Shown in pieces: positions 7,465 to 56,194 of a stretch of DNA of 64,000 bases. Position 1 is the stretch's first letter, and the number at the start of each line of letters is the position of its first letter. The stretch lies in the NCBI GenBank assembly GCA_041661005.1, contig JBAZVG010000001.1, forward strand, positions 403,307-467,306. Reading direction: 5' to 3'. The notes under the pieces were generated by a model. It saw nothing but the letters and a program-made list of their open reading frames with translations. It was not told where the DNA came from and made no database searches. This DNA comes from Minisyncoccota bacterium. GTDB lineage: Bacteria; Patescibacteriota; Minisyncoccia; Phycocordibacterales; UBA9973. The position numbers and the translations under genes are program-made.

Positions 7465-8226
7465 ATGGAAGAAAACAACATTGAAAATAAAGGCAACAAC
7501 AAGAATGAAAGTCAAAAACAAATAGCTGGAGCAATAATCATAGCAGGTCTCATTATAGCTGGAGCAATTTTGTTGAAAGGAAACAGAACCTCTATTCCCA
7601 CAAGTAATGGAGTTCCCGTCACATCTTTAGCTCCAATTGAAAAAAACGATAGAACTCTCGGGAATGTAAAAGCAAAAGTCATCCTCGTTTCATATGAGGA
7701 CTTTCAATGTCCATTCTGCGGAGCAATTTCTGGTTTGGCGCCCGACTCAGACGCTGTAAAGTATTTAAAACAAATTAACCAAAGCTGGACACCTCTTATG
7801 ATCGGCATCGATGAATATATAAAAAACGGGGATGTGTTGTTTGTATATAGAGATTGGGCATTTTTAGGACCGGAATCAGTAAAATCAGCCGAAGCCGCAA
7901 GGTGCGCCGGTGATCAAGGAAAATTTTGGGAATATCACGATTATCTCTATGCCCATCAAAATGGAGAAAATAAGGGGAACTTTTCCGATACTAACCTAAA
8001 GACTTTTGCAAAAAGTTTGAAATTAGACACAAATACTTTTGATCAATGTCTTGATGGTAACAAATACGCGCAAGCGGTTGCAGACTCCAAAACACAAGGA
8101 ACAGAGGCTGGAGTGACAGGCACACCAAAAGGGTTCATTCTTAAAGACGGCAAAATCGTCGGCACTATTGACGGAGCTGAATCATGGACAACTGTCAAAC
8201 CAAAGATTGATAGCGCGCTCAAATAA
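7465..8226 (+). CDS. DsbA-family thiol:disulfide oxidoreductase (membrane-anchored)
   Basis: CPFC active site in a DsbA context (YEDFQCPFCG). N-terminal TM segment. Confidence 0.65.
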   Translation: MEENNIENKGNNKNESQKQIAGAIIIAGLIIAGAILLKGNRTSIPTSNGVPVTSLAPIEKNDRTLGNVKAKVILVSYEDFQCPFCGAISGLAPDSDAVKYLKQINQSWTPLMIGIDEYIKNGDVLFVYRDWAFLGPESVKSAEAARCAGDQGKFWEYHDYLYAHQNGENKGNFSDTNLKTFAKSLKLDTNTFDQCLDGNKYAQAVADSKTQGTEAGVTGTPKGFILKDGKIVGTIDGAESWTTVKPKIDSALK

Positions 8227-8237
8227 AACTAATCGAA

Positions 8238-8681
8238 ATGAAAAATATATTTACATTTCTAATATTTATCCTCCTCATTGTTAATTCCTATTTTACATTT
8301 GGAACATTTTTAAGTGGTGCTACTGGTGGTGGCTCTGCTGTATTTCGTTATCTTGTTCCGCTTGGAATAGCCATAATTGCTGGAATAATTGGATTATCTT
8401 CTAGAAATTCATACCAATTTGATAATGGACGTAAGATGATAATTATTGGTCTAGTCATACCTCTTATATTATTTATTTATGCATTTATTCTAAACCAGTC
8501 TGATGTTGCCAAATTCAAGCAACGTAAAGTAGATTACGAAAATTCAGCCACAATAGTTAATATTCCCCCCTATTCCTATAAGGTATACCCAAATGGAGGA
8601 TTTACTCCTTTAAATGTTTGTGATGCTGGAGCTGGAACTCTGGAATGTATTAATGCTATAAAGGTTTGGAATCAACATTAG
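8238..8681 (+). CDS. Hypothetical membrane protein
   Basis: Three hydrophobic helices. No family recognised. Confidence 0.3.
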   Translation: MKNIFTFLIFILLIVNSYFTFGTFLSGATGGGSAVFRYLVPLGIAIIAGIIGLSSRNSYQFDNGRKMIIIGLVIPLILFIYAFILNQSDVAKFKQRKVDYENSATIVNIPPYSYKVYPNGGFTPLNVCDAGAGTLECINAIKVWNQH

Positions 8682-8760
8682 TTGATACAAAACTAATGAA
8701 AGTAGTTTTTTTATCTTACATTAAGAACTACCTTTAAATTACCTTGACTGAAACAAAAAA

Positions 8761-8792
8761 ACCATAATAGACACGACCGTGTCTATTATGGT
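8761..8792. promoter_or_regulatory. 32-bp palindrome ACCATAATAGACACG-AC-CGTGTCTATTATGGT, 13 nt upstream of the PaaX-like gene start
   Basis: Perfect 15-bp arms. TATTAT inside the right arm is a possible -10. A near-identical copy lies 3' of the same gene at 9391..9422. Confidence 0.55.
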
Positions 8793-8804
8793 AACATATA
8801 AAAT

Positions 8805-9365
8805 ATGCGCTTAATTGATCAAGAGTCTAATTCAGGCAAAATAATCCGCGCGCTTGGTATCGGGATAGGGATATCCGTGGCACTAGGAAATAGGAGAACA
8901 AGCTATAAAATGACAAAAACATTAATTAAAGAAATTTTTGGTTTAAATAAACAACCCAAAAATTATTCTAGATATTTTTCTAAACTGAGAAAACAAAAGT
9001 TTGTATGTATTAAGAAAATTGACAGTGATCACATTGTGTCTCTCACAGAAAAAGGCAGAGAAGTTTTTTTAAGATTTAATTACGAAAACTTGGAAATAAA
9101 AAGAAGTAAAATATGGGATAGGAACTTTCGCATGGTTGTCTTTGATATTCCAGAAATAAAAAGAAATGCCAGAGATTCACTTCGAGATAAACTGAAAGAA
9201 ATGGGTTTGGTAAAATTCAACGATAGTGTTTGGATATATCCGTTCCCCTGCCAGCAAGAAATTGATTTTATTGCCAATTATTGGAATATAGGAAAATATG
9301 TGCATTTTGCTTTAGTTAAAAATATAACCAATAGAGATTACTTAGAAAGGTATTTTAATTTATAG
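8805..9365 (+). CDS. PaaX-like transcriptional regulator, short form (paralog 1)
   Basis: Winged-helix region (KQKFVCIKKIDSDHIVSLTEKGREVF) followed by a PaaX middle-domain-like block. IWDRNFRMVVFDIPE...LVKFNDSVWIYPFPC compares with E. coli PaaX AWDGKWLLLLSEGL...GFGALAPSLMASP. Confidence 0.5.
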   Translation: MRLIDQESNSGKIIRALGIGIGISVALGNRRTSYKMTKTLIKEIFGLNKQPKNYSRYFSKLRKQKFVCIKKIDSDHIVSLTEKGREVFLRFNYENLEIKRSKIWDRNFRMVVFDIPEIKRNARDSLRDKLKEMGLVKFNDSVWIYPFPCQQEIDFIANYWNIGKYVHFALVKNITNRDYLERYFNL

Positions 9366-31226: not shown

Positions 31227-31937
31227 TTAATCCAACCAATTTTTTGCTTTTAATGCCGCTTCAGCCGCTTTTTGTTCCGCTTCCTGTTTGCTTTTACCTT
31301 TACCCTCGGCTATCAAATCATCTCTGAAAAAAATACCAACAGTAAAATGCTTGTCGTGGTCAGGACCTGATTCATGTAGCACTTTATATGCAGGCGTAAC
31401 ATTCACAAACTCCTGCGCTTTTTCCTGCACGAGAGATTTCGCATCGCGCCAAAGTTTTTTCGATACTATTTCTTCAGTCTTAGGCAGAAGATATTTTTGC
31501 AAAAACTTATCCACCACTTCTATCCCCTGATCCAAATACATGGCTCCAATATACGCCTCATAAGTATTGGCTAAAATATATTGCCTTGCCTTACCATTAT
31601 CTTTTGCTTCGCCTTTGGATAAAAGAAGATATTCGTTCATGCCGATACCTGTCGCAACTTCAGAAATAATAATAGCATTAACTAAAGCTGAACGCAGAGA
31701 AGTCAGTTCCCCTTCTGTATAATTAGGATATTTTTTATAAAGAAAATCAGTGACGATCAGCTCCAACACGGCATCACCTAAAAATTCCAGCCTCTCATTG
31801 TGCGACAGTTTTGTCCCCGGATTTTCATTTATATAAGAACGATGTATAAAAGCCTGCTGAAGCAAACCCTTATCTTTGAAAGTTACTTTGGTTTTTTTTT
31901 CGAAGTTTGAAAAGTTAATCATAGAATTATTTCCCAT
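31227..31937 (-). CDS. rnc: Ribonuclease III
   Basis: NERLEFLGDAVLELIV signature and a C-terminal dsRBD (KQEAEQKAAEAALKA). Confidence 0.85.
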   Translation of the reverse strand: MGNNSMINFSNFEKKTKVTFKDKGLLQQAFIHRSYINENPGTKLSHNERLEFLGDAVLELIVTDFLYKKYPNYTEGELTSLRSALVNAIIISEVATGIGMNEYLLLSKGEAKDNGKARQYILANTYEAYIGAMYLDQGIEVVDKFLQKYLLPKTEEIVSKKLWRDAKSLVQEKAQEFVNVTPAYKVLHESGPDHDKHFTVGIFFRDDLIAEGKGKSKQEAEQKAAEAALKAKNWLD

Positions 31938-32925
31938 CTACGCGGGTAGGTTTAGTTATAATCTCAACTGCCTTGGCGATAAGCGGAATGATGTCATTAT
32001 AAATACGAAGTCCTGGCACCTCGGACATTTCAAACCATCTAGCTCCATCGAGCCCGCCGGATTTCTCCAGAACAAGCTCTTTATATTCGCTAGATGCTAA
32101 AAAGTAAACAACTTTTTTGAGACTCTTACCCTTTTCCGGGTGTGTCGCAACATATTCATTGGTGCCAAGTTTTTCTTCTATCACAACATCAAGCCCTATT
32201 TCTTTCTTGATGGCTTTCAATGCGCCTTCTTGTATATCTCCACCTGCTTCAATTTTTCCTTTTGAAAGAGTCCAGTAGCCAAAAACATCATGCACGAAGG
32301 CAAACAAAATATTTTCATTTCCTTTGAGGTTGGCGGGCTTTTTTGTATACACCAATGCGCCCCCTAAATTTTCAACCGGCAATTCATTGATATCTTCTGG
32401 TCCTTTTGTATCTTTTGATGAAACATCATTTCTTTTTTTATCAAATTTTTTTTGATGTTCTTTTTCCGGCTCACCGATCTCCTTATAGACAGTTCCGAGC
32501 ACTCCATTTACAAACTTTCCAGAGTTTTCGCCACCAAAAGTTTTCGCCAATTCTATGGCTTCATTGATTGCCACTTTCGGTGGCACTTGCATTCTATTAC
32601 CAAATAAAAGTTCAGCCAATCCAATTCGAAGAATGTTTCTGTCAACAATAGAGATTTTGCTTATTGGCCAATCCGGCGCAGCTTTTTCTATGATTTCATC
32701 AACCACGATGCGCCTTTTTAACACTTCTTCTAAAAGTAAAAAAACAAAATCATTATCTTCAAGCCCGGGAGCAAATTCTTTTAAATTCCTGCTTAGAATA
32801 TTTCTTATTTCTTTTTCATCAATAGGTTTGTCTGTATCGCGTTGCATCGCTTTGCGAGCCGACAAGAAATCCCACTCGAAAAGCGTCTGGAGTACTATTG
32901 ATCTTGAAAGGTGCCTATTTGCCAT
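31927..32925 (-). CDS. nusB: NusB-like N-terminal domain fused to a NUDIX-like C-terminal domain
   Basis: N-terminus MANRHLSRSIVLQTLFEWDF...AINEAIELAKTFGGENSGKFVNGVLG (NusB). C-terminus contains a degenerate Nudix box GDIQEGALKAIKKEIGL. Overlaps rnc by 11 nt. Confidence 0.55.
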   Translation of the reverse strand: MANRHLSRSIVLQTLFEWDFLSARKAMQRDTDKPIDEKEIRNILSRNLKEFAPGLEDNDFVFLLLEEVLKRRIVVDEIIEKAAPDWPISKISIVDRNILRIGLAELLFGNRMQVPPKVAINEAIELAKTFGGENSGKFVNGVLGTVYKEIGEPEKEHQKKFDKKRNDVSSKDTKGPEDINELPVENLGGALVYTKKPANLKGNENILFAFVHDVFGYWTLSKGKIEAGGDIQEGALKAIKKEIGLDVVIEEKLGTNEYVATHPEKGKSLKKVVYFLASSEYKELVLEKSGGLDGARWFEMSEVPGLRIYNDIIPLIAKAVEIITKPTRVDGK

Positions 32926-36677: not shown

Positions 36678-37250
36678 CTAAGTTATTTTCTTTAAACTGC
36701 CCGTCTTGCTAATTTCAAAAATTTCCACAAATTCAAGAATTTTTAAGTTTTCCAAATCTTCAATAAAATCTTTCGGAACTTTCCCTTTCCCCATCCAAAC
36801 ACTTTGATGAATCATTCGAAATCCAAAATTTCTAATGACCTCTCTCAGCCAATTGCGCTTTCGACGCAATCTCTCGGGTATATCAAAACTTATTATTACA
36901 GAATTACCCTTATGATTCCGTTCATAAAACCTTCCGGGTAAATTATTTCTAAGTTTATTAAGTTTATCTATTCCCTTACCAGAAATCTTGAATTTATTAT
37001 TCTCTGTTTCAATAAGACCATCATGTTTCATTTTTGATATGAATATTGTCAATCTCCTTCTACTGTTCTGAAGAGCTTCTATTTTTTCTTTCCCGTCTTC
37101 AGAAATTCTTCTGCGCTTATTATACTCATAATTTATTCTACTAGAACTTGCTCCATAACCAGCAGCCAAAACTGCACCAAAGAAATAAACTTGATTCATT
37201 GCTCCTTGACATAGGAATTCTAAAGCTTTTAGTAAAATTTTTCCTCTCAT
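36678..37250 (-). CDS. PaaX-like transcriptional regulator, short form (paralog 3)
   Basis: GNSVIISFDIPERLRRKRNWLREVIRNFGFRMIHQSVWMGKG middle-domain block. A winged helix precedes it, and there is an N-terminal hydrophobic segment. Confidence 0.5.
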   Translation of the reverse strand: MRGKILLKALEFLCQGAMNQVYFFGAVLAAGYGASSSRINYEYNKRRRISEDGKEKIEALQNSRRRLTIFISKMKHDGLIETENNKFKISGKGIDKLNKLRNNLPGRFYERNHKGNSVIISFDIPERLRRKRNWLREVIRNFGFRMIHQSVWMGKGKVPKDFIEDLENLKILEFVEIFEISKTGSLKKIT

Positions 37251-37321: not shown

Positions 37322-37636
37322 CTATTTTATTTTCGTATCGTAAAATTTATACATAACTAAAGCCCCGTAAGGAATTATTAGAAAAAACAAAAATTCTTCA
37401 ATCGGTAGACCTAAAATTCTTATACCAACAAGGCCATCGCCTGGAAAAATCCAATGTTGTCGATATACAGCAAAATAATCCCAAAACATTCCAAATAAAA
37501 AAATATTTAGTGTAACATATAATCTTTCCTTCCTGGAATGGTATAGATGGATGTGATACTTATATTCAATAAATATCGTTACTATAAGTACAACCACTAA
37601 AATTGTTAGATATTCTGGCATACTTTTAGATATCAA
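37322..37636 (-). CDS. Small hypothetical membrane protein
   Basis: Three hydrophobic helices. Overlaps the gyrB end by 11 nt. Confidence 0.3.
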   Translation of the reverse strand: MISKSMPEYLTILVVVLIVTIFIEYKYHIHLYHSRKERLYVTLNIFLFGMFWDYFAVYRQHWIFPGDGLVGIRILGLPIEEFLFFLIIPYGALVMYKFYDTKIK

Positions 37637-39731
37637 TTTCCGCTAGTTTTGCATTGGATTGAATAAAAGATTTGCGAGGAGGAACTTCGGAGCCCATGAG
37701 AATATCGAAAATTTTATTTGCTTCTTCAGCATCATCTATGTTTACCTTTTTGAGAACTCGATTCTTCGGATCCATCGTGGTTTCCCAAAGCTCTTCGGGA
37801 TTCATTTCTCCGAGACCTTTAAAGCGCTGAATATGTATTTTATTTGATTTAGTTTTAGCTTCTTCAGGATTTTCTTGCTCCACCGCCTCGTTGGAGTCAG
37901 GGGTGGAAGCAGGCTCTTCGACAGCCTCAATCTCACTCACATCTGTGTTCTTGCCGACAATTTTTAATTTTTCTTCGTCCGTATAAGCGTATGAAATTTC
38001 TTTACCCTTTTTTATTTTATAAAGCGGTGGCTGGGCAATATAAATATATCCAGCGTCGACAACTGCTCTAAAATATCTGTAGAAAAGCGTCAAAAGAAGT
38101 GTCCGAATGTGCGAACCGTCCACGTCTGCATCTGTCGCAATGATTATTTTATGATAACGCATCTTTGATAAATCAAAAGTGTCTCCAATCGAAGTACCCA
38201 TGGCAATGACGAGGGACTTTACTTCTTTGGAAGCAAGCATTTTGTCTATACGCGCGCGTTCAACATTTAAGATTTTTCCACGGAGTGGCAGTATGGCTTG
38301 AGTTCGGCGATCACGGCCCTGCTTTGCTGAGCCCCCAGCGGAGTCTCCCTCCACCAAGAATAATTCCGACTCTTCCGCATTCTTGCTTTGACAATCTGCC
38401 AATTTTCCCGGAAGTGTCATGCCCTCAAGAGCGCCTTTTCGTAAAATTGAATCTTTCGCAGCTTTAGCAGCCTTGCGAGCTTTCAAGGCGAGAATAGACT
38501 TGTTTATTATGGATTTGGCTTCATCGGGATTTTCTTCTAAGAAATTATTGAATGCCTCACCAAACACAGTAGCCACTGCCCCTTGAGCCTCCATACTTCC
38601 GAGTTTTGCCTTAGTTTGACCCTCAAATTGAATCTCACGCAATTTTACAGAGATAGCCACAGTCAAACCTTCCAGAACATCTTCACCAGTAAATCCCCCT
38701 TCGGACTCTTTCATCATTTCATTTTTCTTGCAGTAAGTATTCAAAGTTCTCGTGAGCGCAGTTTTGAAACCTGTCACGTGCGTACCGCCTTCAGGAGTGT
38801 TTATGTTGTTAGCAAAAGGAATAATGCGATCACTTATATCATCGACATATTGCAAAGCAATCTCTACTCCGACATTATCAAATTCTTTTTCAACATAAAA
38901 AATATTATTTTGAATTGGTTTTTGAAATTTATTATAGTATTTGATGAGAGAAACCAACCCGCCTTCAAAATAAAAAGAAACTGATGGAAGCTCTAAGCCA
39001 AGATCCCTGAAATAAAAGACGTCATTGTCGTCCATTCCTTTTTTATTATCCCATTCTCTGGCATCAATTATTAAAATTTTTAAACCCTTTACTAGATATG
39101 CCTGCTGGCGGATATGGTTAACCACTGTGTGCCAATCAAATTTAATATCTTTAAATATTTCTTGATCTGGTTCAAAAGTTATTATTGTGCCATGAAGTTT
39201 TGAACTGCCTATTTTTTTTACCGCCGATTTTTTCTTGCCTTGAGAATACTCCTGCACATAAACACCGCCATCTTTGTGAACTTCTGCCTTGCAAAAGATA
39301 GAAAGCGCATTCACAACTGACGCGCCAACCCCATGCAGACCACCAGAAACTTTGTATCCTTCTCCACCGAATTTTCCTCCGGCGTGGAGTGTGGTCATGA
39401 CTGTTTCCAAAGCTGATACTTTTGTTTTTTTATGAACATCAACCGGTATACCTCGGCCGTTATCCACCACTCGCACTCGATTGTTAGGAAGAAGCACCAC
39501 CTCAATATCATCGCAAAAACCTCCCATCGCTTCATCGCGCGAGTTGTCAAAAATCTCCCATATTAAGTGATGAAGTCCTTCCGGGCCAGTAGTCCCAATA
39601 TACATACCGGGACGGCGCCGTACGGGCTCTAAACCCTCTAAAACCGAGATATCCGAGGCATCATAATGATGAGCCCCACCAGAAGAGGCAGGGCTTTTCT
39701 TGCTATTTTCAGTGTCTTTTTCTTTGGCCAT
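37626..39731 (-). CDS. gyrB: DNA gyrase subunit B (type IIA topoisomerase ATPase subunit)
   Basis: GLHHLIWEIFDNSRDE, GGLHGVGASVVNALS and TOPRIM motifs EGDSAGGSAKQGRDR. Confidence 0.85.
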   Translation of the reverse strand: MAKEKDTENSKKSPASSGGAHHYDASDISVLEGLEPVRRRPGMYIGTTGPEGLHHLIWEIFDNSRDEAMGGFCDDIEVVLLPNNRVRVVDNGRGIPVDVHKKTKVSALETVMTTLHAGGKFGGEGYKVSGGLHGVGASVVNALSIFCKAEVHKDGGVYVQEYSQGKKKSAVKKIGSSKLHGTIITFEPDQEIFKDIKFDWHTVVNHIRQQAYLVKGLKILIIDAREWDNKKGMDDNDVFYFRDLGLELPSVSFYFEGGLVSLIKYYNKFQKPIQNNIFYVEKEFDNVGVEIALQYVDDISDRIIPFANNINTPEGGTHVTGFKTALTRTLNTYCKKNEMMKESEGGFTGEDVLEGLTVAISVKLREIQFEGQTKAKLGSMEAQGAVATVFGEAFNNFLEENPDEAKSIINKSILALKARKAAKAAKDSILRKGALEGMTLPGKLADCQSKNAEESELFLVEGDSAGGSAKQGRDRRTQAILPLRGKILNVERARIDKMLASKEVKSLVIAMGTSIGDTFDLSKMRYHKIIIATDADVDGSHIRTLLLTLFYRYFRAVVDAGYIYIAQPPLYKIKKGKEISYAYTDEEKLKIVGKNTDVSEIEAVEEPASTPDSNEAVEQENPEEAKTKSNKIHIQRFKGLGEMNPEELWETTMDPKNRVLKKVNIDDAEEANKIFDILMGSEVPPRKSFIQSNAKLAEIDI

Positions 39732-39874
39732 TTATGAGTATATTATAGCACTAAAATGTTCTGGTTGCCAGAACATTCGTGCGAACAATTTCATAAATTT
39801 ATGAAATTGTTTTAGCAAATTTTTATTGCATTTGCTAGTGATTTATTTGTGTAAAATACAAAAAAGTAGGCCGT

Positions 39875-39912
39875 TGTTGCTCGAAGCGACAACGGCCGAT
39901 ACTGGTCAACAA
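39875..39912 (-). terminator. Strong intrinsic terminator on the minus strand
   Basis: Minus strand reads GGCCGTTGTCGC-TTCGA-GCAACAACGGCC followed by TACTTTTTTGTATTTT. Confidence 0.5.
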
Positions 39913-40093
39913 TCCCATCAACCCTCGGGATAAAACATCAGTCGAGACCTCAACACAGTCAGTATCCCATTGACGTATCCAAGGTATTGGTAAAGGAAAG
40001 TTCTTTTCTTCCTTTTCATTTTAATCACCTCCCTTCTCAAAGAGAAGAGTAACATTTTATTTGAAAATGTAAAGGATAGATTTGTTGAATGAA

Positions 40094-40130
40094 AAAAGCC
40101 AGCAACATAAAGGAGTTCTGGCTTTTCAAA
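40094..40130 (-). terminator. Intrinsic terminator immediately after the small Cys-protein gene
   Basis: Minus strand reads AAGCCAG-N15-CTGGCTT followed by TTTTCATTC. Confidence 0.4.
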
Positions 40131-40144
40131 AGTTGATCAGGATT

Positions 40145-40411
40145 TCAGCCTGTGAAAATGTCCCCAACCGAAATTACCTCGGTTTTACCATCCACTTTAA
40201 TGAAAGCGAATATCAGCCTTTTGATTTGTACACATCTTGAGACTTCAAAACACATTCCGGGTTCAAGATGTTTGCCATTAGGCTTTCCATCTTTTTGGTA
40301 ACAAGGCGTTCTCCACTTTGTTATCGCACATGTACCTGAAGAGCGTGCTAGTCCCACACTTTTAGCACTGCCAGCAAAACACCGACTTGCTTTTTTTTTG
40401 CGTTTTTTCAT
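40145..40411 (-). CDS. Small basic Cys-containing hypothetical protein
   Basis: A perfect Shine-Dalgarno GAGGAGAAA directly precedes the ATG. 88 aa with five Cys. No family recognised. Confidence 0.4.
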   Translation of the reverse strand: MKKRKKKASRCFAGSAKSVGLARSSGTCAITKWRTPCYQKDGKPNGKHLEPGMCFEVSRCVQIKRLIFAFIKVDGKTEVISVGDIFTG

Positions 40412-40674
40412 TTTCTCCTCAATTCTGTTTTCAACGAACGTTTTTAGTTGTGCCCTCTTTAAACGAGAACACCAGCCTTTAGAGGGCTGGTGTTTGGGTT
40501 GTAAGTTAGTTTAGTTTGTTTTTACAGCGCAAATATCAGCCTTCTAAATTGAGGGCTGGTAAAGAAAACATTACCAAGTCGTAAATTTTTATTCACGCTT
40601 CTAGTATTACATACTGATAAATAATTGCAAGCTATGCACTTTACTTCTGGAAGATTTTTATCTAAACTAAAAAG

Positions 40675-41829
40675 ATGGCGAAATATGACATAACAAGTCC
40701 CGAAGAAGCAGCTTTAAGGAAAGATCTAGAACCAAAGACCGATGCACATTCTATGCGTTTGAAGCGTTATCTTTCTATGCCGGATCTTTCCCGTACTCCC
40801 GGAAGTCCTTTGGAAGAGATAGTAAGAAAAGCCAAGGAAGTGTCTTCGCTTAAAAATTTCGATGAAATAAAAATACCAGAAATCGTGCCAACAAAAATTC
40901 TTTTTGATTTATTTAATATGCCCGAGGGTCATCCAGCTCGCAGTCCTTCAGACACTTATTATGTTGATGAAAATAATGTTTTAAGAACACATGATACAGT
41001 ATTTTGGTATTACTATCTAAACCTCCCTGAAATAAAAAAAAGGATTGCCAACAAAGAAACTCTCGGGGCTATATGTTATGGCAAAGTGTATCGTAAAGAT
41101 GAAATTGATGCCCGTCACATGAATGTTTTCCATCAATTTGGTGGATGGCTAATAGCACCGGACGACCTGCCTCGACTAGGCAAGGCGGGCAAAGAAACAC
41201 TCACTCCTGAAGATTTAAAAAAAGCTTTAACAGAGATAGCAACAAGTATTTTCGGTAAAATAAACTTTCGTTTTTATGACCACAACTTTCCTTATACTGA
41301 TCCAAGCTTTGAGATGGAAGCAGAGATTAACGGCAAATGGATTGAAATGTTGGGCTCTGGAATGGTAAGAAAAACTGTTCTATCTAATCTAGGGCTCGAA
41401 GGCTACCATGGATGGGCTTTTGGATTCGGTCTAGAACGCCTCGCCATAGCGAGCATGCAACTCCCAGATATCCGACTTTTATGGTCAGAAGACGGAAGAG
41501 TTAAGAAACAACTCAAACTTGGACAAAAATTTGTTGAAGTTAGTAAATATCCTCCGATTGTGCGAGATATTTCTTTTATTGTAAAAAACGACTTCGTGCC
41601 AAATGATTATTTTGATTTCGTGAGAGAATTAGCCCCCGGTATAGTGGAACAAGTAGAACTTTTAGACAAATATGAAAATATAGAAAAATTCGGCGCTGGA
41701 AAAGTTAGTTATGCTTATAGAATCATTTATCGATCGATAGAGAGAACTCTAATTTCAGAAGAGATTGATAAAATTCATAAAAAATTAGAAACTGAGACTA
41801 CAAAAAACTTCAACGCAACAATACGTTAA
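40675..41829 (+). CDS. pheS: Phenylalanyl-tRNA synthetase alpha-type catalytic core with fused C-terminal FDX-ACB anticodon-binding domain (single-chain)
   Basis: Class II motifs (FRFYDHNFPYTDP, GWAFGFGLERLAIA). C-terminal KYPPIVRDISFIV...KVSYAYRIIYRS is an FDX-ACB-type domain. No pheT adjacent. Confidence 0.7.
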   Translation: MAKYDITSPEEAALRKDLEPKTDAHSMRLKRYLSMPDLSRTPGSPLEEIVRKAKEVSSLKNFDEIKIPEIVPTKILFDLFNMPEGHPARSPSDTYYVDENNVLRTHDTVFWYYYLNLPEIKKRIANKETLGAICYGKVYRKDEIDARHMNVFHQFGGWLIAPDDLPRLGKAGKETLTPEDLKKALTEIATSIFGKINFRFYDHNFPYTDPSFEMEAEINGKWIEMLGSGMVRKTVLSNLGLEGYHGWAFGFGLERLAIASMQLPDIRLLWSEDGRVKKQLKLGQKFVEVSKYPPIVRDISFIVKNDFVPNDYFDFVRELAPGIVEQVELLDKYENIEKFGAGKVSYAYRIIYRSIERTLISEEIDKIHKKLETETTKNFNATIR

Positions 41830-44800
41830 ACTTCAGAGGAACTAGTATAAATCTTTGCCATTTTGCAATACTCGCACCCGGTATTTTTACCATAAGAATT
41901 GTAGTTGCAAGGTCTATCTATCCATTTATGTGTCTTGATCAAGTCATCGTAATCTTTAATGTCTTGAATCAAGAGATCTATTTCCTTGGCAGTTATAACT
42001 CTATTATAAAAAAATTCTTTTTCATTTTTTGCTTCCAAAAACTCAAGCCGGCTTTCGCGCACATCTGCCTCCCATTTAGGACTTTTTTCAATTAAATATG
42101 AGTACATCGTTAACTGGCGTAAATAAGAACTCATCCTGCCTTCTTCATCTAATTTTTCAATATCCCCCGTTTTTCGCACACTTCCAGTTTTAAAATCCGT
42201 CACACGCACATTTTTAGCATCCCCGCCTTGCATCGAGGCAGGTAAATTTTCTATCAAGTCTATCTTGCCGTAAATATTTAAATGTGGAAACCTGTCATCA
42301 ATCACAGAAATACTTTGCTCATTCTGTCTCCTTTCGCTTATATCCCCCAGTCTTCTATCTATCCATCTAGAAACCATGTCGAGAGCCAGCTTGGATAGTT
42401 CTTTTTGTTTGTTTTCGTCGCCAAAACCTGACTTTCTAACCTGATGTAAAATTATATTCTGCAAATCTTTTGCACTTGGTTTTTTAACCGACTTTAAAAC
42501 CTGATCAATAGATCCATGTATAATATTTCCAAATTCCAAACTTTCAGATTTTGACTCTGGCAATTGAAGTAAATTTCTGAAATACCATTTCCATGGACAT
42601 TCAAAAAAATTATTCAAAAGAGACACAGAGATTTTCCTGTCTTTATAATCTCTAGCAACCAACTTCGCCAAATCCAATAACGTGATGTTTTTTGGATCAT
42701 TTGCAAGATCAGAAGAAGCGACATAAGCTTTTGGATTGTTTTTTAAAATAATATTTTCTGTTTCAGAAGCGTTTTGCTCTGTAAAATTACCCTTTAAATC
42801 CGCCACAATATGGGCCAATTCTTGATCTCCCCCACTGTATGATTTTAGCGCGTAGGAAATAGTGCAGAATCTCTTAGCGCGAGTTATCGCCACATACAAT
42901 TCACGCTTCAAAACTATCTCGCCTCGTTTTTCAATCTTTTCTTGGAGAGATACAGGCAAAGAAAAACCTCCGCGTCTTTCTCTACTAAAAGATTGCTCAT
43001 CCATATGCGCTATCCACACATAGTCAAACTCAAGCCCCTTTGAACCGTGCAAAGTTAAAACTTTCACACCTTCATTGGAATTAAATATGGCAAGCGGTAT
43101 ATTTTCTCCATAGCTCTCTATTCTTTCCAAGAAACTCAAAAAGCCCTGCAAATTTAATTTAGGGTTTTTTTCTATCTGCATTAACACCAAATGCAACATC
43201 GTGCGAACAACTTCGACTCGGATTATTAAATCTCCATGATTTTTTGCGGTATCAATCAAAAATTCGGTTCCAATCTTTTGAATAAAAGGGTAAAGAGGCT
43301 CGGTCCCTGACGCTAGCCAAAGTTTCAACTTTCGAATCCAAACATTTACTTCATTTTTACTATCAAACAAATTATTTTCATCTTCTACAACGTTCAGTAA
43401 AGAAAACTCGCGCATTTTATTATCTCTAATAAATTCATGTGCTCTCAGAGCAGGAACTCCGGATAATTTGTCGAAAAATGACAACCCAAGAGCCACCCCG
43501 TCATCGGGGTTGGCTATAATTTTCAGCACCCGCAATAAAGACACTGCCTCTTCTGTATCGAAAAAATTCACCATTTCTCCACCCGCAACCGGAATGTCCA
43601 TATCTTTTAATATGGCAATAGTGCTACGAACTTGCTGATTCTTGGGCACCAAAATAGCCATATCGTTTACATCATGCCCTTTTTTTATTTTTTCTTTTAT
43701 TTCTAAAGCGGAAAAAATAATTTCATCTCTCGGGTAATAGGACTCAATCAGACGAAGAGGATGATTTTCTTTATGATTGCTTTTAAGCTGGCCTTCAGAA
43801 AGAGAGCTTTGGAGTAGCTTGTGGGAAGAATCTAGGATCTGCTGGGTGGAGCGATAGTTCTCGACTAGGGTGATAAGTTTCGCTTTACCAAAAGCATTTT
43901 TGAAATTTTTAAAATATTCAAGCGAGGCTCCGCCAAATCCATAAATAAGTTGGCGATCATCTCCAACCACAAAAATATTCGGCTTTTCTTCACCTCCCCA
44001 AACCTTAGACAGAAATTCATTCTGCACTCCGCTAGAATCTTGATGTTCATCTATCAAAATATAGAGAAAATTTTCTTTAATATAACTGTTTGCTTCTTCT
44101 GATTCTTCCACAATAAAAACTAGGGATTCCAAAATATCATCATAATCAAACAAATTCTTTTCCTTTTTGGCTGTTTCATAGAGAGCATAAAACTTTACAG
44201 CCTCCAGGGTGCGAAAAAGACTTTCGATTTTTTTTTGTATTTCTTTTTTTATCTCACCTTTACTTTCCCCTCTCGTAGAAATGTTTTCGGGGTCATCTTT
44301 AATATTTTTTATTTCTTTATTTATTTCATTCTCAAAATCCTCGGGAGTTATCCGCTCTCTCTTTAGAAGAGAGATCATATTTTTAAGATCTTTGAAATAT
44401 CGAGAAGTTTCTGAACGTGGACGAATGTGTTTCCAATCGTTTTTTTGAAGAACTTCATCATAGAGATTGATAGTATCCTTTTCGTCCATCAATTTTGGTT
44501 TCTCATCAAGAGAAAGCACGTTAAAATATTTATCAAGTATTTCCATGCCAAAACTGTGAAAAGTGGAAATTTTAACCTTGGAGGCTTCAGAACCGATGTA
44601 TTTACGTAATCTATCCCGCATAGCAAGAACTGCTGAATTGGTAAAAGTAAGACACAAAACACCGTCTGCTTTTGTGTCAGTTTTTGATAAAATATTTCCT
44701 ATCCTAAGAGCTAAAATCTGTGTTTTGCCTGTTCCCGGCCCTGCTACCACCATCACCGGACCTTCAATTGAGTCCACCGCTTCCTTTTGGGTAGAATTTA

Positions 44801-44843
44801 GGTTTTTATATTCATTACTGTATTCTCCTTTAAAATTTTTCAT
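41826..44843 (-). CDS. UvrD/PcrA-type SF1 helicase fused to C-terminal PD-(D/E)xK nuclease with Cys cluster (AddAB/Cas4-like)
   Basis: N-terminus AGPGTGKTQILALRI. C-terminus ECPWKWYFRNL, GKIDLIE and VTDFKTG nuclease motifs, plus terminal CNYNSYGKNTGCEYC. Confidence 0.7.
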   Translation of the reverse strand: MKNFKGEYSNEYKNLNSTQKEAVDSIEGPVMVVAGPGTGKTQILALRIGNILSKTDTKADGVLCLTFTNSAVLAMRDRLRKYIGSEASKVKISTFHSFGMEILDKYFNVLSLDEKPKLMDEKDTINLYDEVLQKNDWKHIRPRSETSRYFKDLKNMISLLKRERITPEDFENEINKEIKNIKDDPENISTRGESKGEIKKEIQKKIESLFRTLEAVKFYALYETAKKEKNLFDYDDILESLVFIVEESEEANSYIKENFLYILIDEHQDSSGVQNEFLSKVWGGEEKPNIFVVGDDRQLIYGFGGASLEYFKNFKNAFGKAKLITLVENYRSTQQILDSSHKLLQSSLSEGQLKSNHKENHPLRLIESYYPRDEIIFSALEIKEKIKKGHDVNDMAILVPKNQQVRSTIAILKDMDIPVAGGEMVNFFDTEEAVSLLRVLKIIANPDDGVALGLSFFDKLSGVPALRAHEFIRDNKMREFSLLNVVEDENNLFDSKNEVNVWIRKLKLWLASGTEPLYPFIQKIGTEFLIDTAKNHGDLIIRVEVVRTMLHLVLMQIEKNPKLNLQGFLSFLERIESYGENIPLAIFNSNEGVKVLTLHGSKGLEFDYVWIAHMDEQSFSRERRGGFSLPVSLQEKIEKRGEIVLKRELYVAITRAKRFCTISYALKSYSGGDQELAHIVADLKGNFTEQNASETENIILKNNPKAYVASSDLANDPKNITLLDLAKLVARDYKDRKISVSLLNNFFECPWKWYFRNLLQLPESKSESLEFGNIIHGSIDQVLKSVKKPSAKDLQNIILHQVRKSGFGDENKQKELSKLALDMVSRWIDRRLGDISERRQNEQSISVIDDRFPHLNIYGKIDLIENLPASMQGGDAKNVRVTDFKTGSVRKTGDIEKLDEEGRMSSYLRQLTMYSYLIEKSPKWEADVRESRLEFLEAKNEKEFFYNRVITAKEIDLLIQDIKDYDDLIKTHKWIDRPCNYNSYGKNTGCEYCKMAKIYTSSSEV

Positions 44844-53763: not shown

Positions 53764-54768
53764 TTACCTCACTATCTTAAACTCATCTTTTACGCCTGAA
53801 AGAGAATAAAACATACCCCTGAGACTTTTTTCTGTTACCTCTACCCTCAAAAACCCGTATATATCACCCTCAAGCGAAGCAAAATATGGAACTTCTGGAT
53901 CATTAAAATCAATTTTGCGGGATGGAGCGCCACCTGTACCCACTATCGTGATTATTCCTCCGTTCCCTTGCTTGTAATCCTCCGGAGATGTATCTTCTCC
54001 TAAACAAGCTGGGTCGAACATGTTTAATTTTACACAAACGAGCTGTTTCGTTCGCTGATAACTATGCTCATGACCTTGCATAATCAGATCGACATTGTGC
54101 GCTAAAAGATAATTTATAAGCTCTTCCCCTATTTCACAACCATGTATACCTCCCGCTGATATACAGATTTTGTGCATGCCAACAATCGTCCAAGGAATTT
54201 CTTTTTGATGACCTTCATCGATAACCTTTTTTAACCACTCCATGTGCTTACTTCCTGTACTATAAACAAAAGTCTGTCCGTCGCTAAAATGCAAGTTTGG
54301 AGAAATCAAAATGAAACGAATTAAAGGTTTTTCTTCCGGATAGTCAAAATAATATTCCTTTCCATATTCCCCTTTAATGCCCGCTGTCACATTTGGTAAA
54401 CAAGATATGAATTTTTCTATTGAGCCATTTTGCCCATCACTTTCATGGTTGCCAGCAAGAAGTTCAATAGGCACACTAGGCAAGTATTTTTTCATCATAT
54501 TACACCATTCTGTTTCTGGTTTCACTTCATCATAACTTAAATCTCCAAGTACAAAATGCAGATCAGGCATTTCTTTTGCAATATTTTTTAGATTTTTAAC
54601 AGTAAATGAGTTAACACCATAATCTCCGGCTGATGTAAAAATAAAACTTGGCCCAGTCTGTTTATCCACCCTCTCTGTCCTCGAAATAAAAATTGAGATA
54701 CCAAGAACAAGCAAAAGAATAATCAATACTATCAGCCGAATATATCTCTTATCGAATATCTTTGTCAT
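53764..54768 (-). CDS. Calcineurin-like metallophosphoesterase
   Basis: GDLSYDE, GNHE and GHEHSYQR metal-binding motifs. Start set at MTKIFDKRY because the upstream extension overlaps a divergent gene. Confidence 0.65.
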   Translation of the reverse strand: MTKIFDKRYIRLIVLIILLLVLGISIFISRTERVDKQTGPSFIFTSAGDYGVNSFTVKNLKNIAKEMPDLHFVLGDLSYDEVKPETEWCNMMKKYLPSVPIELLAGNHESDGQNGSIEKFISCLPNVTAGIKGEYGKEYYFDYPEEKPLIRFILISPNLHFSDGQTFVYSTGSKHMEWLKKVIDEGHQKEIPWTIVGMHKICISAGGIHGCEIGEELINYLLAHNVDLIMQGHEHSYQRTKQLVCVKLNMFDPACLGEDTSPEDYKQGNGGIITIVGTGGAPSRKIDFNDPEVPYFASLEGDIYGFLRVEVTEKSLRGMFYSLSGVKDEFKIVR

Positions 54769-54793
54769 GTATGTTATATTATAATCAAAATAA

Positions 54794-56194
54794 ATGGAAA
54801 AAACTAACGAAAAAATAACTACTGTGTGTATACCGACCTGCAACAGGCCAGAATTTTTGCATAGAGCCCTCATTGGTCTTGTAGAAAACCTGAAAAAATA
54901 TGGCCGTGCTCCGCGCATCTTGGTTATAGATGATTCCGAGGAACCACAAAATGCTCAAAAAACAAGAGAAATTTGTAGCTCACATGGGGCTAATTATCAG
55001 GGAAAAATTGAGTGCATGGATAGAAATGATCGCGCAGAGATGGCAAAAATACTCGCAAAAGAAAAAGGGGTGTCTCTCGAGGTTCTTAATTTTGCTTTAT
55101 GCGGGGATAAACTATCTACAACAACAGCAGGAGCAGTCCGAAACACCTTCCTATTAAAAACACGAGGTGAAAAAATACTTATAGTGGATGATGATGTGGT
55201 TTATAATTTTTTTTCTCCAATTTTTGAAGAACCGCCACTTTTTAGTATCGAAAATCCCCTTGAATATTGGTTCCTAGAGGGTGATGAAACACCACCAACT
55301 TCTTTATTTAAACCTGTTGAGGTTGATTTGCTAGATATCCATGAAAGTATGCTTGGTAAAAAAGCTGGTGAGATACTAGGTCAAAATATTCCAGATGATA
55401 TGAAAGGTATGGAAATAATGGACACATATATGGGAGCCTATGGGGATTCTCCCATGGAATCACATATCCCCCTACTCCTTTTACCTCAAGTCTATGAGAA
55501 ATTTAAAAACATTTCTCCAATCCAATATAAAGCAATTAAGGGAACTAGAAAAATCATTCAAGTTCCTTTTTCTACGACGGTTTATCAAGGACCTATCTGC
55601 ACTTCAATGGTTGTGGGAATAGATAATCGTCAACTTCCTCCACCATTCATACCGATAGGCAGAGCACAAGATCTCGTATTTGGAACTACACGATGGACTG
55701 CTTTTCCTTCAAAACTTTCTGTATATCTTCCCATTCTCATAGGACACGAGAGACCTGATAAAAAAATCCAGTCTGCAGTATACAACAGTGTACATGAGGT
55801 AACAAAAATAAACAGAATTATAGCTAACTTCATAGAAGAGGAAATAAACAATGTTAATATAAACTCAAGTGAGAATTTACAGATAATTGGAAATAAATTT
55901 ATCAACATCGCTCAAAAATCAGAGTCCGAGTTCTCGCTCTTTATGGAAACTCAATGTCAAAAAATCACCAAAATAGTAACAGATCATGTAAATAACATAC
56001 TTAAAAATAGTCCTGAGATGCCTGATTTTTGGATAAGCGATATGAATTCTATGATAAGCGAACTTGAATTTTCAGATCCTAAATTTTTTATGGACAATAT
56101 AACAAAAAGTCCTAATAAAAATAGACTGACAATCCTTCAAAAATGGATGGGGTTATATGGCCAATTGCTACAAGTCTGGTATAAGTTGTTATAG
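54794..56194 (+). CDS. Putative family-2 glycosyltransferase-like protein
   Basis: N-terminus TVCIPTCNRPEFL...ILVIDDSEE and later ILIVDDDVV (DxD-like). Weak assignment. Confidence 0.4.
   Translation: MEKTNEKITTVCIPTCNRPEFLHRALIGLVENLKKYGRAPRILVIDDSEEPQNAQKTREICSSHGANYQGKIECMDRNDRAEMAKILAKEKGVSLEVLNFALCGDKLSTTTAGAVRNTFLLKTRGEKILIVDDDVVYNFFSPIFEEPPLFSIENPLEYWFLEGDETPPTSLFKPVEVDLLDIHESMLGKKAGEILGQNIPDDMKGMEIMDTYMGAYGDSPMESHIPLLLLPQVYEKFKNISPIQYKAIKGTRKIIQVPFSTTVYQGPICTSMVVGIDNRQLPPPFIPIGRAQDLVFGTTRWTAFPSKLSVYLPILIGHERPDKKIQSAVYNSVHEVTKINRIIANFIEEEINNVNINSSENLQIIGNKFINIAQKSESEFSLFMETQCQKITKIVTDHVNNILKNSPEMPDFWISDMNSMISELEFSDPKFFMDNITKSPNKNRLTILQKWMGLYGQLLQVWYKLL

What the first reader, a model, noticed from the sequence alone, without database searches (positions are those of the whole stretch)
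40675..41829. Single-chain (mitochondrial-type) phenylalanyl-tRNA synthetase; no pheT next to pheS
The 384-aa protein has the PheS class II catalytic core (FRFYDHNFPYTDP, GWAFGFGLERLAIA). It continues into a C-terminal domain with the KYPPIVRDISFIV ... VSYAYRIIYRS pattern typical of the FDX-ACB anticodon-binding domain. That domain is normally found at the C-terminus of PheT and in monomeric organellar PheRS.

The gene is followed by a convergent helicase gene, not pheT. Canonical bacterial PheRS is an alpha2-beta2 tetramer, so a monomeric form would mean loss of the editing beta subunit.
Basis: partly seen in the sequence, partly recalled or inferred. Interest (0 to 1): 0.6.

Follow-up and report, generated by a model that had tools for sequence, protein, structure and literature searches.

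The report
Single-chain, mitochondrial-type PheRS in a CPR bacterium
This tiny-genome bacterium (Candidate Phyla Radiation) appears to charge tRNA-Phe with a one-polypeptide enzyme built like the mitochondrial one, lacking the large proofreading beta subunit that textbook bacterial enzymes have.

Summary
ORF 40675-41829 (+) encodes a 384-aa protein with a complete PheS class II catalytic core (PF01409, E=1.8e-50). This is fused directly to a full-length FDX-ACB anticodon-binding domain (PF03147, E=1.7e-21).

Its best solved relative, by sequence and by predicted fold over the full length, is human mitochondrial PheRS (E~4e-55; TM 0.72).

The host is a Candidatus Paceibacterota (CPR) bacterium. 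The gene belongs to a large, tight CPR family that is as conserved as GyrB and sits in a conserved helicase-PheRS-gyrB block. It forms a sister clade to the mitochondrial and huge-phage single-chain enzymes.

No pheT or second pheS lies in the 64-kb window or in 335 kb of related CPR loci. A published single-copy-gene table scores exactly one 'PheRS alpha' in near-complete Nomurabacteria genomes that carry this gene.

In sister lineages (Doudnabacteria-like) a 140-aa stand-alone copy of the PheT B2 tRNA-binding domain sits directly upstream. This suggests the beta subunit was pared down to its tRNA-binding modules.

Two things were not shown directly: absence of pheT from the whole genome, and the monomeric state.

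This is a new (bacterial) member of a known kind, and interest is moderate to high.

The parts
40675..41829 (+). Complete gene for the single-chain PheRS (384 aa plus stop codon)
   Evidence: ORF. An identical protein, P0001, comes from a Candidatus Paceibacterota MAG (locus tag WC735_02440, 813,355-bp contig). Homologues align over 100% of its length, which supports the ATG start.
40675..40803 (+). N-terminal extension (aa 1-43). It is conserved within the CPR family and much shorter than the ~85-100-aa coiled-coil arm of canonical bacterial PheS.
   Evidence: Family alignment A2 shows invariant L18, D23, R28, R31, D37, L38 and R40. The AF2 model predicts two helices, H9-18 and H24-34, with pLDDT ~80-94.
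40804..41511 (+). Class II PheS catalytic core (aa 44-279)
   Evidence: PF01409, E=1.8e-50. 34% identity to E. coli PheS residues 131-327. Foldseek TM-score normalised to target length (TMt) is 0.77-0.80 to bacterial PheS cores.
40930..40941 (+). HPAR motif (aa 86-89), conserved PheS signature upstream of motif 2
   Evidence: H86 and R89 are invariant across A1 and A2 and present in E. coli PheS (HPAR at position 149) and in the representatives.
41089..41136 (+). Class II motif 2 region, YRKDEIDARHMNVFHQ (aa 139-154). It holds the motif-2 arginine R140 and the FHQ triplet.
   Evidence: R140, D142, D145, H148, F152, H153 and Q154 are invariant in A1. It aligns to human mt PheRS VYRRDQIDSQHYPIFHQ. 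The loop at aa 142-150 has low pLDDT, as expected for a substrate-ordered loop.
41287..41307 (+). Phenylalanine-pocket strand FPYTDPS (aa 205-211). It corresponds to E. coli F248-P-F250-T251-E-P-S. Y207 replaces the second Phe.
   Evidence: Position mapping is. T208 corresponds to E. coli T251. FPY occurs in 120/120 closest homologues and 22/24 GTDB CPR loci. FPF occurs in 102 of 121 scorable representatives and in E. coli.
41410..41451 (+). Class II motif 3, GWAFGFGLERLAIA (aa 246-259). A248 corresponds to the E. coli specificity residue A294.
   Evidence: A248, F249, G250 and R255 are invariant in A1. It aligns to human GWAFGLGLERLAM and E. coli GFAFGMGMERL.
41512..41541 (+). Short linker or hinge (aa 280-289) joining the equivalent of the PheS C-terminus (PDIRLLWSED.RV..Q) directly to the anticodon-binding domain
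   Evidence: pLDDT is below 50 at aa 282-288. The flanking motif PDIRL(L/F)W is shared with human mt PheRS. It corresponds to the very C-terminus of E. coli PheS (DLRSFFENDLRFLKQFK).
41542..41826 (+). FDX-ACB (ferredoxin-fold anticodon-binding) domain (aa 290-384), homologous to domain B8 at the C-terminus of PheT
   Evidence: PF03147 positions 1-94/94, E=1.7e-21. TIGR00472 pheT_bact positions 693-798/798. My own PheT HMM matches positions 695-798. Conserved RD(I/L)(S/A)F and S345/R353 positions are.
37626..39731 (-). gyrB, a conserved neighbour of the gene across CPR lineages (context, not part of the enzyme)
   Evidence: gyrB is adjacent to the single-chain PheRS gene in most related loci.
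41826..44843 (-). UvrD-type helicase with C-terminal PD-(D/E)XK nuclease (AddA-like). It is convergent and overlaps the PheRS stop codon by 4 bp. It is a conserved member of the same synteny block (context).
   Evidence: Pfam. The same helicase lies in the block helicase ... tRNA_bind - PheRS - gyrB in L083 and L086.

Best explanation
The gene encodes this bacterium's housekeeping phenylalanyl-tRNA synthetase. It is a single polypeptide with the same architecture as mitochondrial PheRS.

Shown:
- A complete PheS class II catalytic core, with motifs 2 and 3 and the Phe-pocket residues intact, is fused through a ~10-residue hinge to the ferredoxin-fold anticodon-binding domain that normally ends the beta subunit.
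- The family is large, CPR-wide, as conserved as GyrB, and syntenic.

Inferred mechanism, by homology with human mt PheRS:
- The core makes Phe-AMP from Phe and ATP.
- The C-terminal domain reads the GAA anticodon of tRNA-Phe.
- The domain swings on the hinge from a closed to an open state so that the acceptor end reaches the active site.
- Because beta domains B1 and B3-B7 are absent, there is no B3/B4 post-transfer editing site. Fidelity against Tyr and m-Tyr must therefore rest on the synthetic site alone. That site carries a clade-specific F-to-Y change at the pocket wall, Y207.

Inferred history: the fusion looks like a deletion that joined the end of pheS to the last domain of the adjacent pheT. 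In sister CPR lineages the only other remnant of PheT is a stand-alone B2 tRNA-binding mini-protein encoded just upstream. This window's lineage lacks that mini-protein next to the gene.
For: Domain architecture.

Best sequence match among solved structures is human mt PheRS at 4e-55, with alignment through core, hinge and anticodon-binding domain.

AF2 model has pLDDT 81. Foldseek best match is 3cmq, TM 0.72 over 388 columns.

Catalytic and specificity residues are conserved: E. coli T251 = T208, A294 = A248, motif 2 R140, FHQ.

Family size and host: more than 6000 clusters, Nomurabacteria/Paceibacterota, 72-92% identity among the top 120. UniRef names them phenylalanine--tRNA ligase.

Housekeeping-level constraint: mean 59.8% identity against 61.9% for GyrB across 15 genome pairs.

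Conserved block helicase-(tRNA_bind)-PheRS-gyrB-greA-aaRS.

No pheT or second pheS in the window or in 335 kb of 25 CPR loci. As a control, 52 of 55 Clostridia loci found by the same scan have pheT next to pheS.

Anantharaman et al. 2016 (PMC5079060), Suppl. Data 4, scores 'Phenylalanyl tRNA synthetase alpha' = 1 in Nomurabacteria RIFCSPLOWO2_01_FULL_42_17. That genome is 99.9% complete, and its longest contig (326,489 bp) is the contig carrying P0006, which is 88% identical to this protein. Three further genomes with names matching those of carriers also score 1. The CPR 43-gene list contains no PheRS beta.

The stand-alone PheT-B2 mini-protein family has 867 hits. IMG names these proteins 'PheRS beta chain'.
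Against: - I could not read the other ~750 kb of the source contig, so a pheT or pheS elsewhere in this genome is not excluded directly.
- The single-copy-gene table is annotation-based. If its pipeline missed the single-chain form, the count of 1 could refer to a canonical PheS. GenBank records of these genomes call the protein 'hypothetical'.
- The protein scores below the curated cutoffs of every NCBIfam PheRS model.
- The 335 kb of related loci all sample the same syntenic neighbourhood, so they are weak evidence of absence.
- Activity, oligomeric state and amino-acid specificity are untested. The invariant Y207 in the pocket could mean altered specificity.
Confidence: 0.8

Rival explanations
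1. Auxiliary paralogue. The genome has a normal pheS-pheT pair elsewhere, and this fused protein is an extra PheS-like ligase. It could be a second PheRS with different specificity or resistance, or a 'mystery ligase' of the SrmL type that acts on another substrate.
For: NCBIfam contains a family called 'PheS-related mystery ligase SrmL' (NF051887). It matches this protein nearly end to end at 209 bits. A related single-chain protein in an Oligoflexia MAG sits among non-housekeeping genes. Mukai et al. 2017 (PMC5370408) state that CPR bacteria do have PheRS beta, often without B2. Whole-genome absence of pheT was not tested directly.
Against: The SrmL score is far below its cutoff of 300, and none of 20 related representatives reaches that cutoff. 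The gene is as conserved as gyrB and lies in a conserved housekeeping block across CPR classes. Near-complete Nomurabacteria genomes of ~0.67 Mb score one PheS-type gene, not two. Catalytic and Phe-pocket residues are intact. An 0.8-Mb genome keeping two PheRS systems is unparsimonious. The Mukai example accession lies in the GenBank block of other CPR phyla; that placement is my inference from neighbouring accessions.
Confidence: 0.1
2. It is the cell's PheRS but not a lone monomer. It works as a homo-oligomer or with a small trans-acting partner, such as a stand-alone tRNA-binding (PheT-B2) mini-beta or a free-standing editing factor encoded elsewhere in the genome.
For: In Doudnabacteria-like and other CPR loci, a 139-156-aa PF01588 protein that matches PheT HMM positions 42-159 is encoded 20-220 bp upstream on the same strand. 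This mini-protein family has 867 members. Nearly all other class II synthetases are oligomers (general knowledge).
Against: No mini-beta gene is present next to the gene or anywhere in this 64-kb window. There are only weak hits (E~4e-5) inside rpoC. The contig lengths of the 120 closest PheRS homologues and of the 120 best mini-beta hits do not overlap. Human mt PheRS with the same architecture is active as a monomer (PMC3275996, abstract; otherwise general knowledge).
Confidence: 0.15
3. Foreign or artefactual. The gene is a recent transfer from a eukaryote, giant virus or huge phage, or it is a mis-binned contaminant on this contig.
For: The closest characterised relatives are mitochondrial. 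Single-chain PheRS genes occur on a 494-kb phage-like contig and in nucleocytoviruses (PMC11304981).
Against: GC content of the gene region (0.37) matches the window. The family forms its own CPR clade with 100% NJ bootstrap support, separate from the mitochondrial/phage clade. It is found with conserved bacterial neighbours in at least 25 GTDB CPR species and thousands of metagenomic clusters.
Confidence: 0.02

Closest known systems
Mitochondrial phenylalanyl-tRNA synthetase (human FARS2, yeast MSF1; TIGR00469; PDB 3CMQ, 3TUP; 'PheRS-M' in AARS Online)
   Same: The architecture is identical: PheS-type class II core, short hinge, then FDX-ACB anticodon-binding domain in one chain of ~350-420 aa. 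There are no B1-B7 domains and no editing site. It is the best sequence match (4e-55) and the best fold match (TM 0.72, full length). Motifs are shared through the hinge (PDIRL(F/L)W).
   Different: The host is bacterial and the enzyme would act in the cytosol. Identity is ~31-40%. The score of 212.8 bits is below the equivalog cutoff of 258.35. It lacks the insertion between motifs 2 and 3 that splits alignments to eukaryotic members. FPY replaces FPF in the Phe pocket. It forms a sister clade rather than nesting among mitochondrial sequences.
Canonical bacterial PheRS, (alpha-beta)2: PheS (TIGR00468) plus PheT (TIGR00472)
   Same: The catalytic core is homologous to PheS (34% identity to E. 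coli residues 131-327). The C-terminal domain is homologous to PheT domain B8 (E. coli residues 608-794).
   Different: It has no long N-terminal coiled-coil arm and no separate beta subunit next door. All of B1, B3/B4 (editing), B5 and B6/7 are missing. It is below the PheS cutoff (154.7 against 237.45). In the control Clostridia loci pheT follows pheS in 52 of 55 cases.
NCBIfam NF051887, 'PheS-related mystery ligase SrmL'
   Same: A near full-length match (profile positions 31-344 of 349) implies that SrmL proteins share the core-plus-C-terminal-domain layout.
   Different: The score is 209 bits against a cutoff of 300, so this protein is not a member. No related representative tested reaches the cutoff either. 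Nothing on SrmL was found in the paper library.
Single-chain PheRS genes of huge phages and giant viruses
   Same: The domain pair PF01409+PF03147 is the same, in proteins of 340-370 aa. One example is P0145 on a 494-kb contig with terminase, T4 RNA ligase and a GluRS-like gene. Nucleocytovirus PheRS groups with organellar PheRS (PMC11304981).
   Different: Those proteins pass the mitochondrial equivalog cutoff and fall in the mito-like clade B, not in the CPR clade.
Editing-defective PheRS of Mycoplasma and other reduced-genome parasites
   Same: Both show the same trend: loss of PheRS proofreading in organisms with minimal genomes (PMC3553970, listed; otherwise general knowledge).
   Different: Mycoplasma keeps the full alpha and beta subunits with point changes in the editing site. 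Here the whole editing domain, and most of beta, is gone.

Membership tests
PheRS alpha-type class II catalytic core (Pfam PF01409) | Significant match to the tRNA-synt_2d profile, with motifs 2 and 3 present | tested here: met
   172.1 bits against a cutoff of 19.8, aa 44-279, profile positions 17-245/246. R140, FHQ and GWAFGFGLER are conserved.
PheRS alpha-type class II catalytic core (Pfam PF01409) | Phe-pocket specificity residues equivalent to E. coli T251 and A294 | tested here: met
   T208 and A248. The neighbouring F250 equivalent is Tyr (Y207), a clade-specific change.
FDX-ACB anticodon-binding domain (Pfam PF03147) | Full-length match above the gathering score | tested here: met
   76.9 bits against 31.1, profile positions 1-94/94, aa 290-384. 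It also matches PheT model positions 693-798.
Mitochondrial-type single-chain PheRS (NCBIfam TIGR00469 pheS_mito, equivalog) | Score at or above the curated cutoff of 258.35 bits | tested here: not met
   212.8 bits. The 50%-identity cluster representative of the same CPR clade, P0121, just passes at 264.3 bits.
Mitochondrial-type single-chain PheRS (architecture) | One chain: PheS core, hinge, then a C-terminal B8-like anticodon-binding domain, with a full-length fold match to the solved enzyme | tested here: met
   Foldseek to 3cmq gives TMq 0.72 and TMt 0.69 over 388 columns.
Mitochondrial-type single-chain PheRS (architecture) | Active as a monomer | not testable with these tools
   This needs biochemistry. 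It is inferred only from the shared architecture.
Mitochondrial-type single-chain PheRS (architecture) | No beta subunit used: no pheT in the genome or compartment | tested here: inconclusive
   None in the 64-kb window. None in 335 kb of related loci. Published tables score one PheS-type gene per near-complete Nomurabacteria genome, and beta is not in the CPR single-copy list.
Canonical bacterial PheS (NCBIfam TIGR00468, equivalog) | Score at or above 237.45 bits, with the N-terminal coiled-coil domain and an adjacent pheT | tested here: not met
   154.7 bits, matching only profile positions 71-321. There is no pheT neighbour.
SrmL, PheS-related mystery ligase (NCBIfam NF051887, equivalog) | Score at or above 300 bits | tested here: not met
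   209.1 bits.
Phenylalanine--tRNA ligase (EC 6.1.1.20), function | Aminoacylates tRNA-Phe with phenylalanine | not testable with these tools
   No tRNA-Phe gene is in the window; the only tRNA is Ser-GGA. Activity is inferred from conserved catalytic and anticodon-domain residues.

The most novel reading that the evidence does not exclude
Whole classes of CPR bacteria (Paceibacteria/Nomurabacteria, Doudnabacteria and relatives) translate with an editing-free, single-chain PheRS. It shares one fusion origin with the mitochondrial enzyme. The 'mitochondrial-type' PheRS would then be an old prokaryotic (CPR or phage-borne) invention that eukaryotes acquired, not a eukaryote-specific reduction. 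In these bacteria the beta subunit survives at most as a 140-aa B2 tRNA-binding mini-protein.
Probability: 0.3. Interest if true: 0.8.

Novelty: new member of a known kind. Interest (0 to 1): 0.58.

Why it matters
Reviews describe three PheRS forms: bacterial (alpha-beta)2, archaeal/eukaryotic cytosolic (alpha-beta)2, and a monomeric form restricted to organelles (for example PMC3275996).

A large bacterial radiation that uses the monomeric form as its only PheRS would have several consequences:
- It would break that rule.
- It would give a natural case of complete loss of PheRS proofreading in free-standing cells. That matters for mistranslation tolerance in ultra-small symbionts.
- It would provide prokaryotic outgroups for the origin of mitochondrial PheRS.
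- It would explain why NCBI annotation leaves thousands of these genes as 'hypothetical protein'.
- It would explain why pheT-based markers behave oddly in CPR genome-completeness estimates.
- It would offer a compact 376-384-aa PheRS scaffold for engineering.

Tried and rejected
1. Finding a CPR PheT to use as a seed, so that contig lengths and locus tags could link it to genomes carrying this gene. This did not work.
- E. coli and Clostridia PheT would only return their own relatives among the 120 listed hits.
- A PheT alignment (A3) against viral contigs returned only ordinary bacterial pheT on prophage flanks.
- I left the last large protein search unused, because no available query could rank Paceibacteria PheT first.

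2. Reading the source contig beyond the window. The look-up of encoding contigs returned only a 2-kb Logan contig for the exact protein.

3. Literature. Nine full-text searches found no paper describing a bacterial or CPR single-chain PheRS, and nothing on SrmL.

4. Leader RNA. There is no T-box or other Rfam family in the 940-bp gap upstream, and no terminator-like site. Promoter-like hits are at the level of shuffled sequence.

5. Hidden PheT among the neighbours. The ~650-710-aa ORFs next to the gene in related loci are gyrB.

6. Mini-beta remnant in the window. There are only weak tblastn hits inside rpoC domains 2-3, which I judged to be chance.

7. SrmL membership. It is rejected on score.

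8. Sampling more loci from metagenomes to test for pheT. I rejected this because all such loci sample the same conserved neighbourhood and add little independent evidence.
Full report
**1. Observation**

All four quoted peptides are present, at aa 198-210, 246-259, 291-303 and 344-354.

Pfam finds two domains:
- The PheS class II core, PF01409, at aa 44-279 (E=1.8e-50).
- A complete FDX-ACB domain, PF03147, at aa 290-384, covering profile positions 1-94 of 94 (E=1.7e-21).

The same C-terminal stretch aligns to the last 106 positions of the bacterial PheT model (TIGR00472 693-798/798). It also aligns to E. coli PheT residues 608-794.

The next gene is convergent. It is a 1005-aa UvrD-type helicase with a PD-(D/E)XK nuclease domain, and its stop codon overlaps the PheRS stop by 4 bp.

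**2. What organism, and what else is in the window**

An identical protein (P0001) comes from a Candidatus Paceibacterota MAG (locus tag WC735_02440) on an 813,355-bp contig. This is therefore a CPR/Patescibacteria genome of the Nomurabacteria type, with GC ~0.37.

The window is ordinary housekeeping DNA. It holds rpoB/rpoC, dnaG, a sigma-70 factor, RNase R, SMC, RNase III, NusB, ThrRS, gyrB, ligA, truB, type IV pilus genes and one tRNA-Ser.

No ORF in the window has PheT domains, and there is no second PheS. tblastn with E. coli PheS and PheT hits only this ORF, and so does an HMM built from 41 PheT sequences.

The 940-bp gap upstream of the gene holds no T-box or other Rfam family.

**3. What the protein resembles**

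Among solved structures the best sequence matches are all human mitochondrial PheRS (E ~4e-55). The alignment runs through the core, the hinge (PDIRLLW against PDIRLFW) and the anticodon-binding domain. Bacterial PheS chains match only the core, at ~1e-25.

An AlphaFold2 model has mean pLDDT 81 and pTM 0.75. Confidence is low only in the motif-2 loop (aa 142-150) and the hinge (aa 282-288).

The model superposes over its full length on the closed form of human mt PheRS (3cmq, TM 0.72, 388 columns). It fits the open tRNA-bound form less well (3tup, TM 0.57). It matches bacterial PheS only over the core.

Catalytic residues are in place: HPAR, the motif-2 arginine R140, FHQ, and motif 3 GWAFGFGLER. 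The two residues that set Phe specificity in E. coli, T251 and A294, correspond to T208 and A248.

There is one clade-specific difference. The second Phe of the FPF pocket wall (E. coli F250) is Tyr here. FPY is found in all 120 closest homologues and in 22 of 24 GTDB CPR loci. FPF is found in 102 of 121 scorable representatives.

**4. Family membership**

The protein is below the curated cutoff of every NCBIfam model it hits:

| Model | Score (bits) | Cutoff (bits) |
|---|---|---|
| pheS_mito (TIGR00469) | 212.8 | 258.35 |
| SrmL 'PheS-related mystery ligase' (NF051887) | 209.1 | 300 |
| pheS (TIGR00468) | 154.7 | 237.45 |

This explains why NCBI calls the family 'hypothetical protein', while UniRef calls it phenylalanine--tRNA ligase and IMG calls it 'PheRS alpha chain'.

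An exhaustive search of 1.84 billion representatives finds only 189 clusters at E<=1e-30. The whole close CPR family collapses into essentially one 50%-identity cluster. Its representative, P0121 (57% identity), just passes the mitochondrial cutoff. None of 20 representatives tested reaches the SrmL cutoff.

A neighbour-joining tree gave the following bootstrap support, using the 234 core columns only and 100 replicates:
- All single-chain proteins are monophyletic against E. coli, Clostridia and Fusobacteria PheS: 100%.
- Clade A, made of the CPR family plus a few others such as an Oligoflexia protein: 100%.
- Clade B, made of insertion-bearing (eukaryote-like) and short phage-like proteins that pass the mitochondrial model: 99%.

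This method is rough and the outgroup is narrow. It supports a single origin of the fusion and a sister relationship, but it does not prove either.

One clade-B protein lies on a 494-kb contig with terminase, a NUMOD endonuclease, T4 RNA ligase and a GluRS-like gene. That contig is a huge phage.

**5. Is it the cell's only PheRS?**

This is the crux, and I could not read the rest of the contig. The indirect evidence is as follows.

(a) Constraint. Across 15 CPR genomes that carry both genes in the fetched loci, identity to the window protein averages 59.8% for PheRS and 61.9% for GyrB.

(b) Synteny. The gene sits beside gyrB in most of the 25 GTDB CPR loci recovered (Yanofsky-, Kaiser-, Zambryski- and Azambacteria, Paceibacterota, and a 37%-identical Gracilibacteria copy). 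Doudnabacteria-like contigs show the block helicase ... tRNA_bind - PheRS - gyrB - greA - class IIb aaRS. The window has the same helicase and gyrB neighbours, in different orientations.

(c) No canonical genes nearby. No canonical pheS or pheT is found in 335 kb of these loci. The same scan's Clostridia hits show pheT next to pheS in 52 of 55 loci, so the detection method works. This is weak evidence, because the CPR loci all sample one neighbourhood.

(d) Published gene counts. Anantharaman et al. 2016 list 43 single-copy genes per genome. This genome scores 'Phenylalanyl tRNA synthetase alpha' = 1.
- Three other Nomurabacteria genomes, with names matching those of carriers, also score 1.
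- If a canonical PheS were present as well, the count should be 2.
- The list has no beta-subunit entry. The authors say the reduced set was chosen because many CPR lack some single-copy genes or have versions too divergent to predict.
- That PheRS beta was among the genes dropped from the larger list is my recollection, not something I tested.

(e) A remnant of PheT. In three GTDB loci and in further metagenomic contigs, a 139-156-aa ORF directly upstream on the same strand is a stand-alone tRNA_bind domain (PF01588).
- It matches PheT HMM positions 42-159, which is domain B2, at 63-92 bits.
- The family has 867 hits. The best 120 are all stand-alone proteins of 116-156 aa, mostly labelled Doudnabacteria, and IMG names them 'PheRS beta chain'.
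- A PheT reduced to B2 as a free protein, with B8 fused to alpha, is what one would expect if the full beta subunit had been lost.

Taken together, I put ~0.8-0.85 on 'sole PheRS'.

The counter-evidence is as follows:
- Mukai et al. 2017 note that CPR bacteria have PheRS beta, often lacking B2. CPR is therefore not uniform.
- The single-copy table is annotation-based.

**6. Mechanism (inferred)**

By homology with human mt PheRS, the core activates Phe with ATP and the ferredoxin-fold domain binds the GAA anticodon. The domain then rotates about the short hinge so that the acceptor end reaches the active site.

With B3/B4 absent there is no post-transfer editing site. Discrimination against Tyr and m-Tyr must come from the synthetic site, where the invariant Y207 is a candidate adaptation. 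That last point is speculation.

The join is direct. The equivalent of the PheS C-terminus (…DIRLLWSED.RV..Q) runs straight into the start of B8 (…SKYPP..RDISF). A single deletion spanning the pheS stop and pheT domains B1-B7 would produce this arrangement.

**7. Novelty and score**

Single-chain PheRS is a known kind, but it is described as organellar (PMC3275996; AARS Online PMC11580382 lists PheRS-M with FARS2). Nine full-text searches found no description of a bacterial or CPR version.

The sequences are public, and UniProt auto-names them PheRS. The gene family is therefore visible in databases even though it appears not to be discussed.

I file it as a new (bacterial) member of a known kind, with interest 0.58. 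The main open item, a whole-genome check for pheT, is trivial for anyone who has the MAG.

Noticed in passing
L003:9533-9949, L016:304-732, L020:9511-9978, L083:6001-6429, L086:6001-6420 (not in the window): A stand-alone 139-156-aa tRNA_bind (PF01588) protein is encoded directly upstream of the single-chain PheRS gene in Doudnabacteria-like and other CPR lineages. It is most similar to domain B2 of PheT. The family has 867 hits, and IMG annotates its members as 'PheRS beta chain'. It looks like a mini-beta subunit.
   Followed up: partly
L088 (JGI Ga0210003_1000004, 494,080-bp contig), gene 8001-9104: A 367-aa single-chain PheRS that passes the mitochondrial equivalog cutoff lies on a huge-phage-like contig. 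Neighbours include a terminase, a NUMOD homing endonuclease, T4 RNA ligase, a PNKP-like gene and a GluRS/GlnRS-type synthetase.
   Followed up: partly
window 39732-40674: There is an unusually long (940-bp) gap for this compact genome, between divergent gyrB and the PheRS gene. It holds several G+C-rich hairpins (for example ~39869-39897 and ~40468-40495) and an 88-aa Cys/Lys-rich ORF on the - strand (40145-40411) with no Pfam match. No Rfam family reaches its threshold.
   Followed up: partly
window 41287-41307 (aa 205-211): The Phe-pocket motif reads FPY instead of the near-universal FPF. This change is invariant in the core CPR clade but absent from the two most divergent CPR loci (L024, L025) and from most other single-chain PheRS. 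It may be a compensation for loss of editing.
   Followed up: partly
Related genomes (PMC5079060 Suppl. Data 4), not the window: In the same single-copy-gene table, histidyl-tRNA synthetase is scored 0 in most Nomurabacteria genomes, including the 99.9%-complete one. Their HisRS is either missing or too divergent to be recognised.
   Followed up: no
window 36678-37250 (-): A 190-aa protein has a PaaX-middle/Cas2-like domain (PF20803 E=1e-9; weak Cas2 match). It sits between a NUDIX gene and a small lycopene-cyclase-domain membrane protein. I saw no CRISPR array.
   Followed up: no
window 31927-32925 (-): NusB is fused to a C-terminal NUDIX hydrolase domain in one 332-aa ORF, next to RNase III.
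   Followed up: no
window 53764-54918 (-) and 54794-56194 (+): Two long ORFs on opposite strands overlap by ~125 bp. The - strand ORF is a metallophosphoesterase. The 466-aa + strand ORF has no Pfam match.
   Followed up: no
L003, L017, L022 against the window: PheRS and GyrB identities to the window proteins are discordant in some genomes: for example L003 72% against 54%, and L022 51% against 70%. This could reflect transfer of the PheRS gene among CPR lineages, or gyrB/parE paralogy.
   Followed up: no
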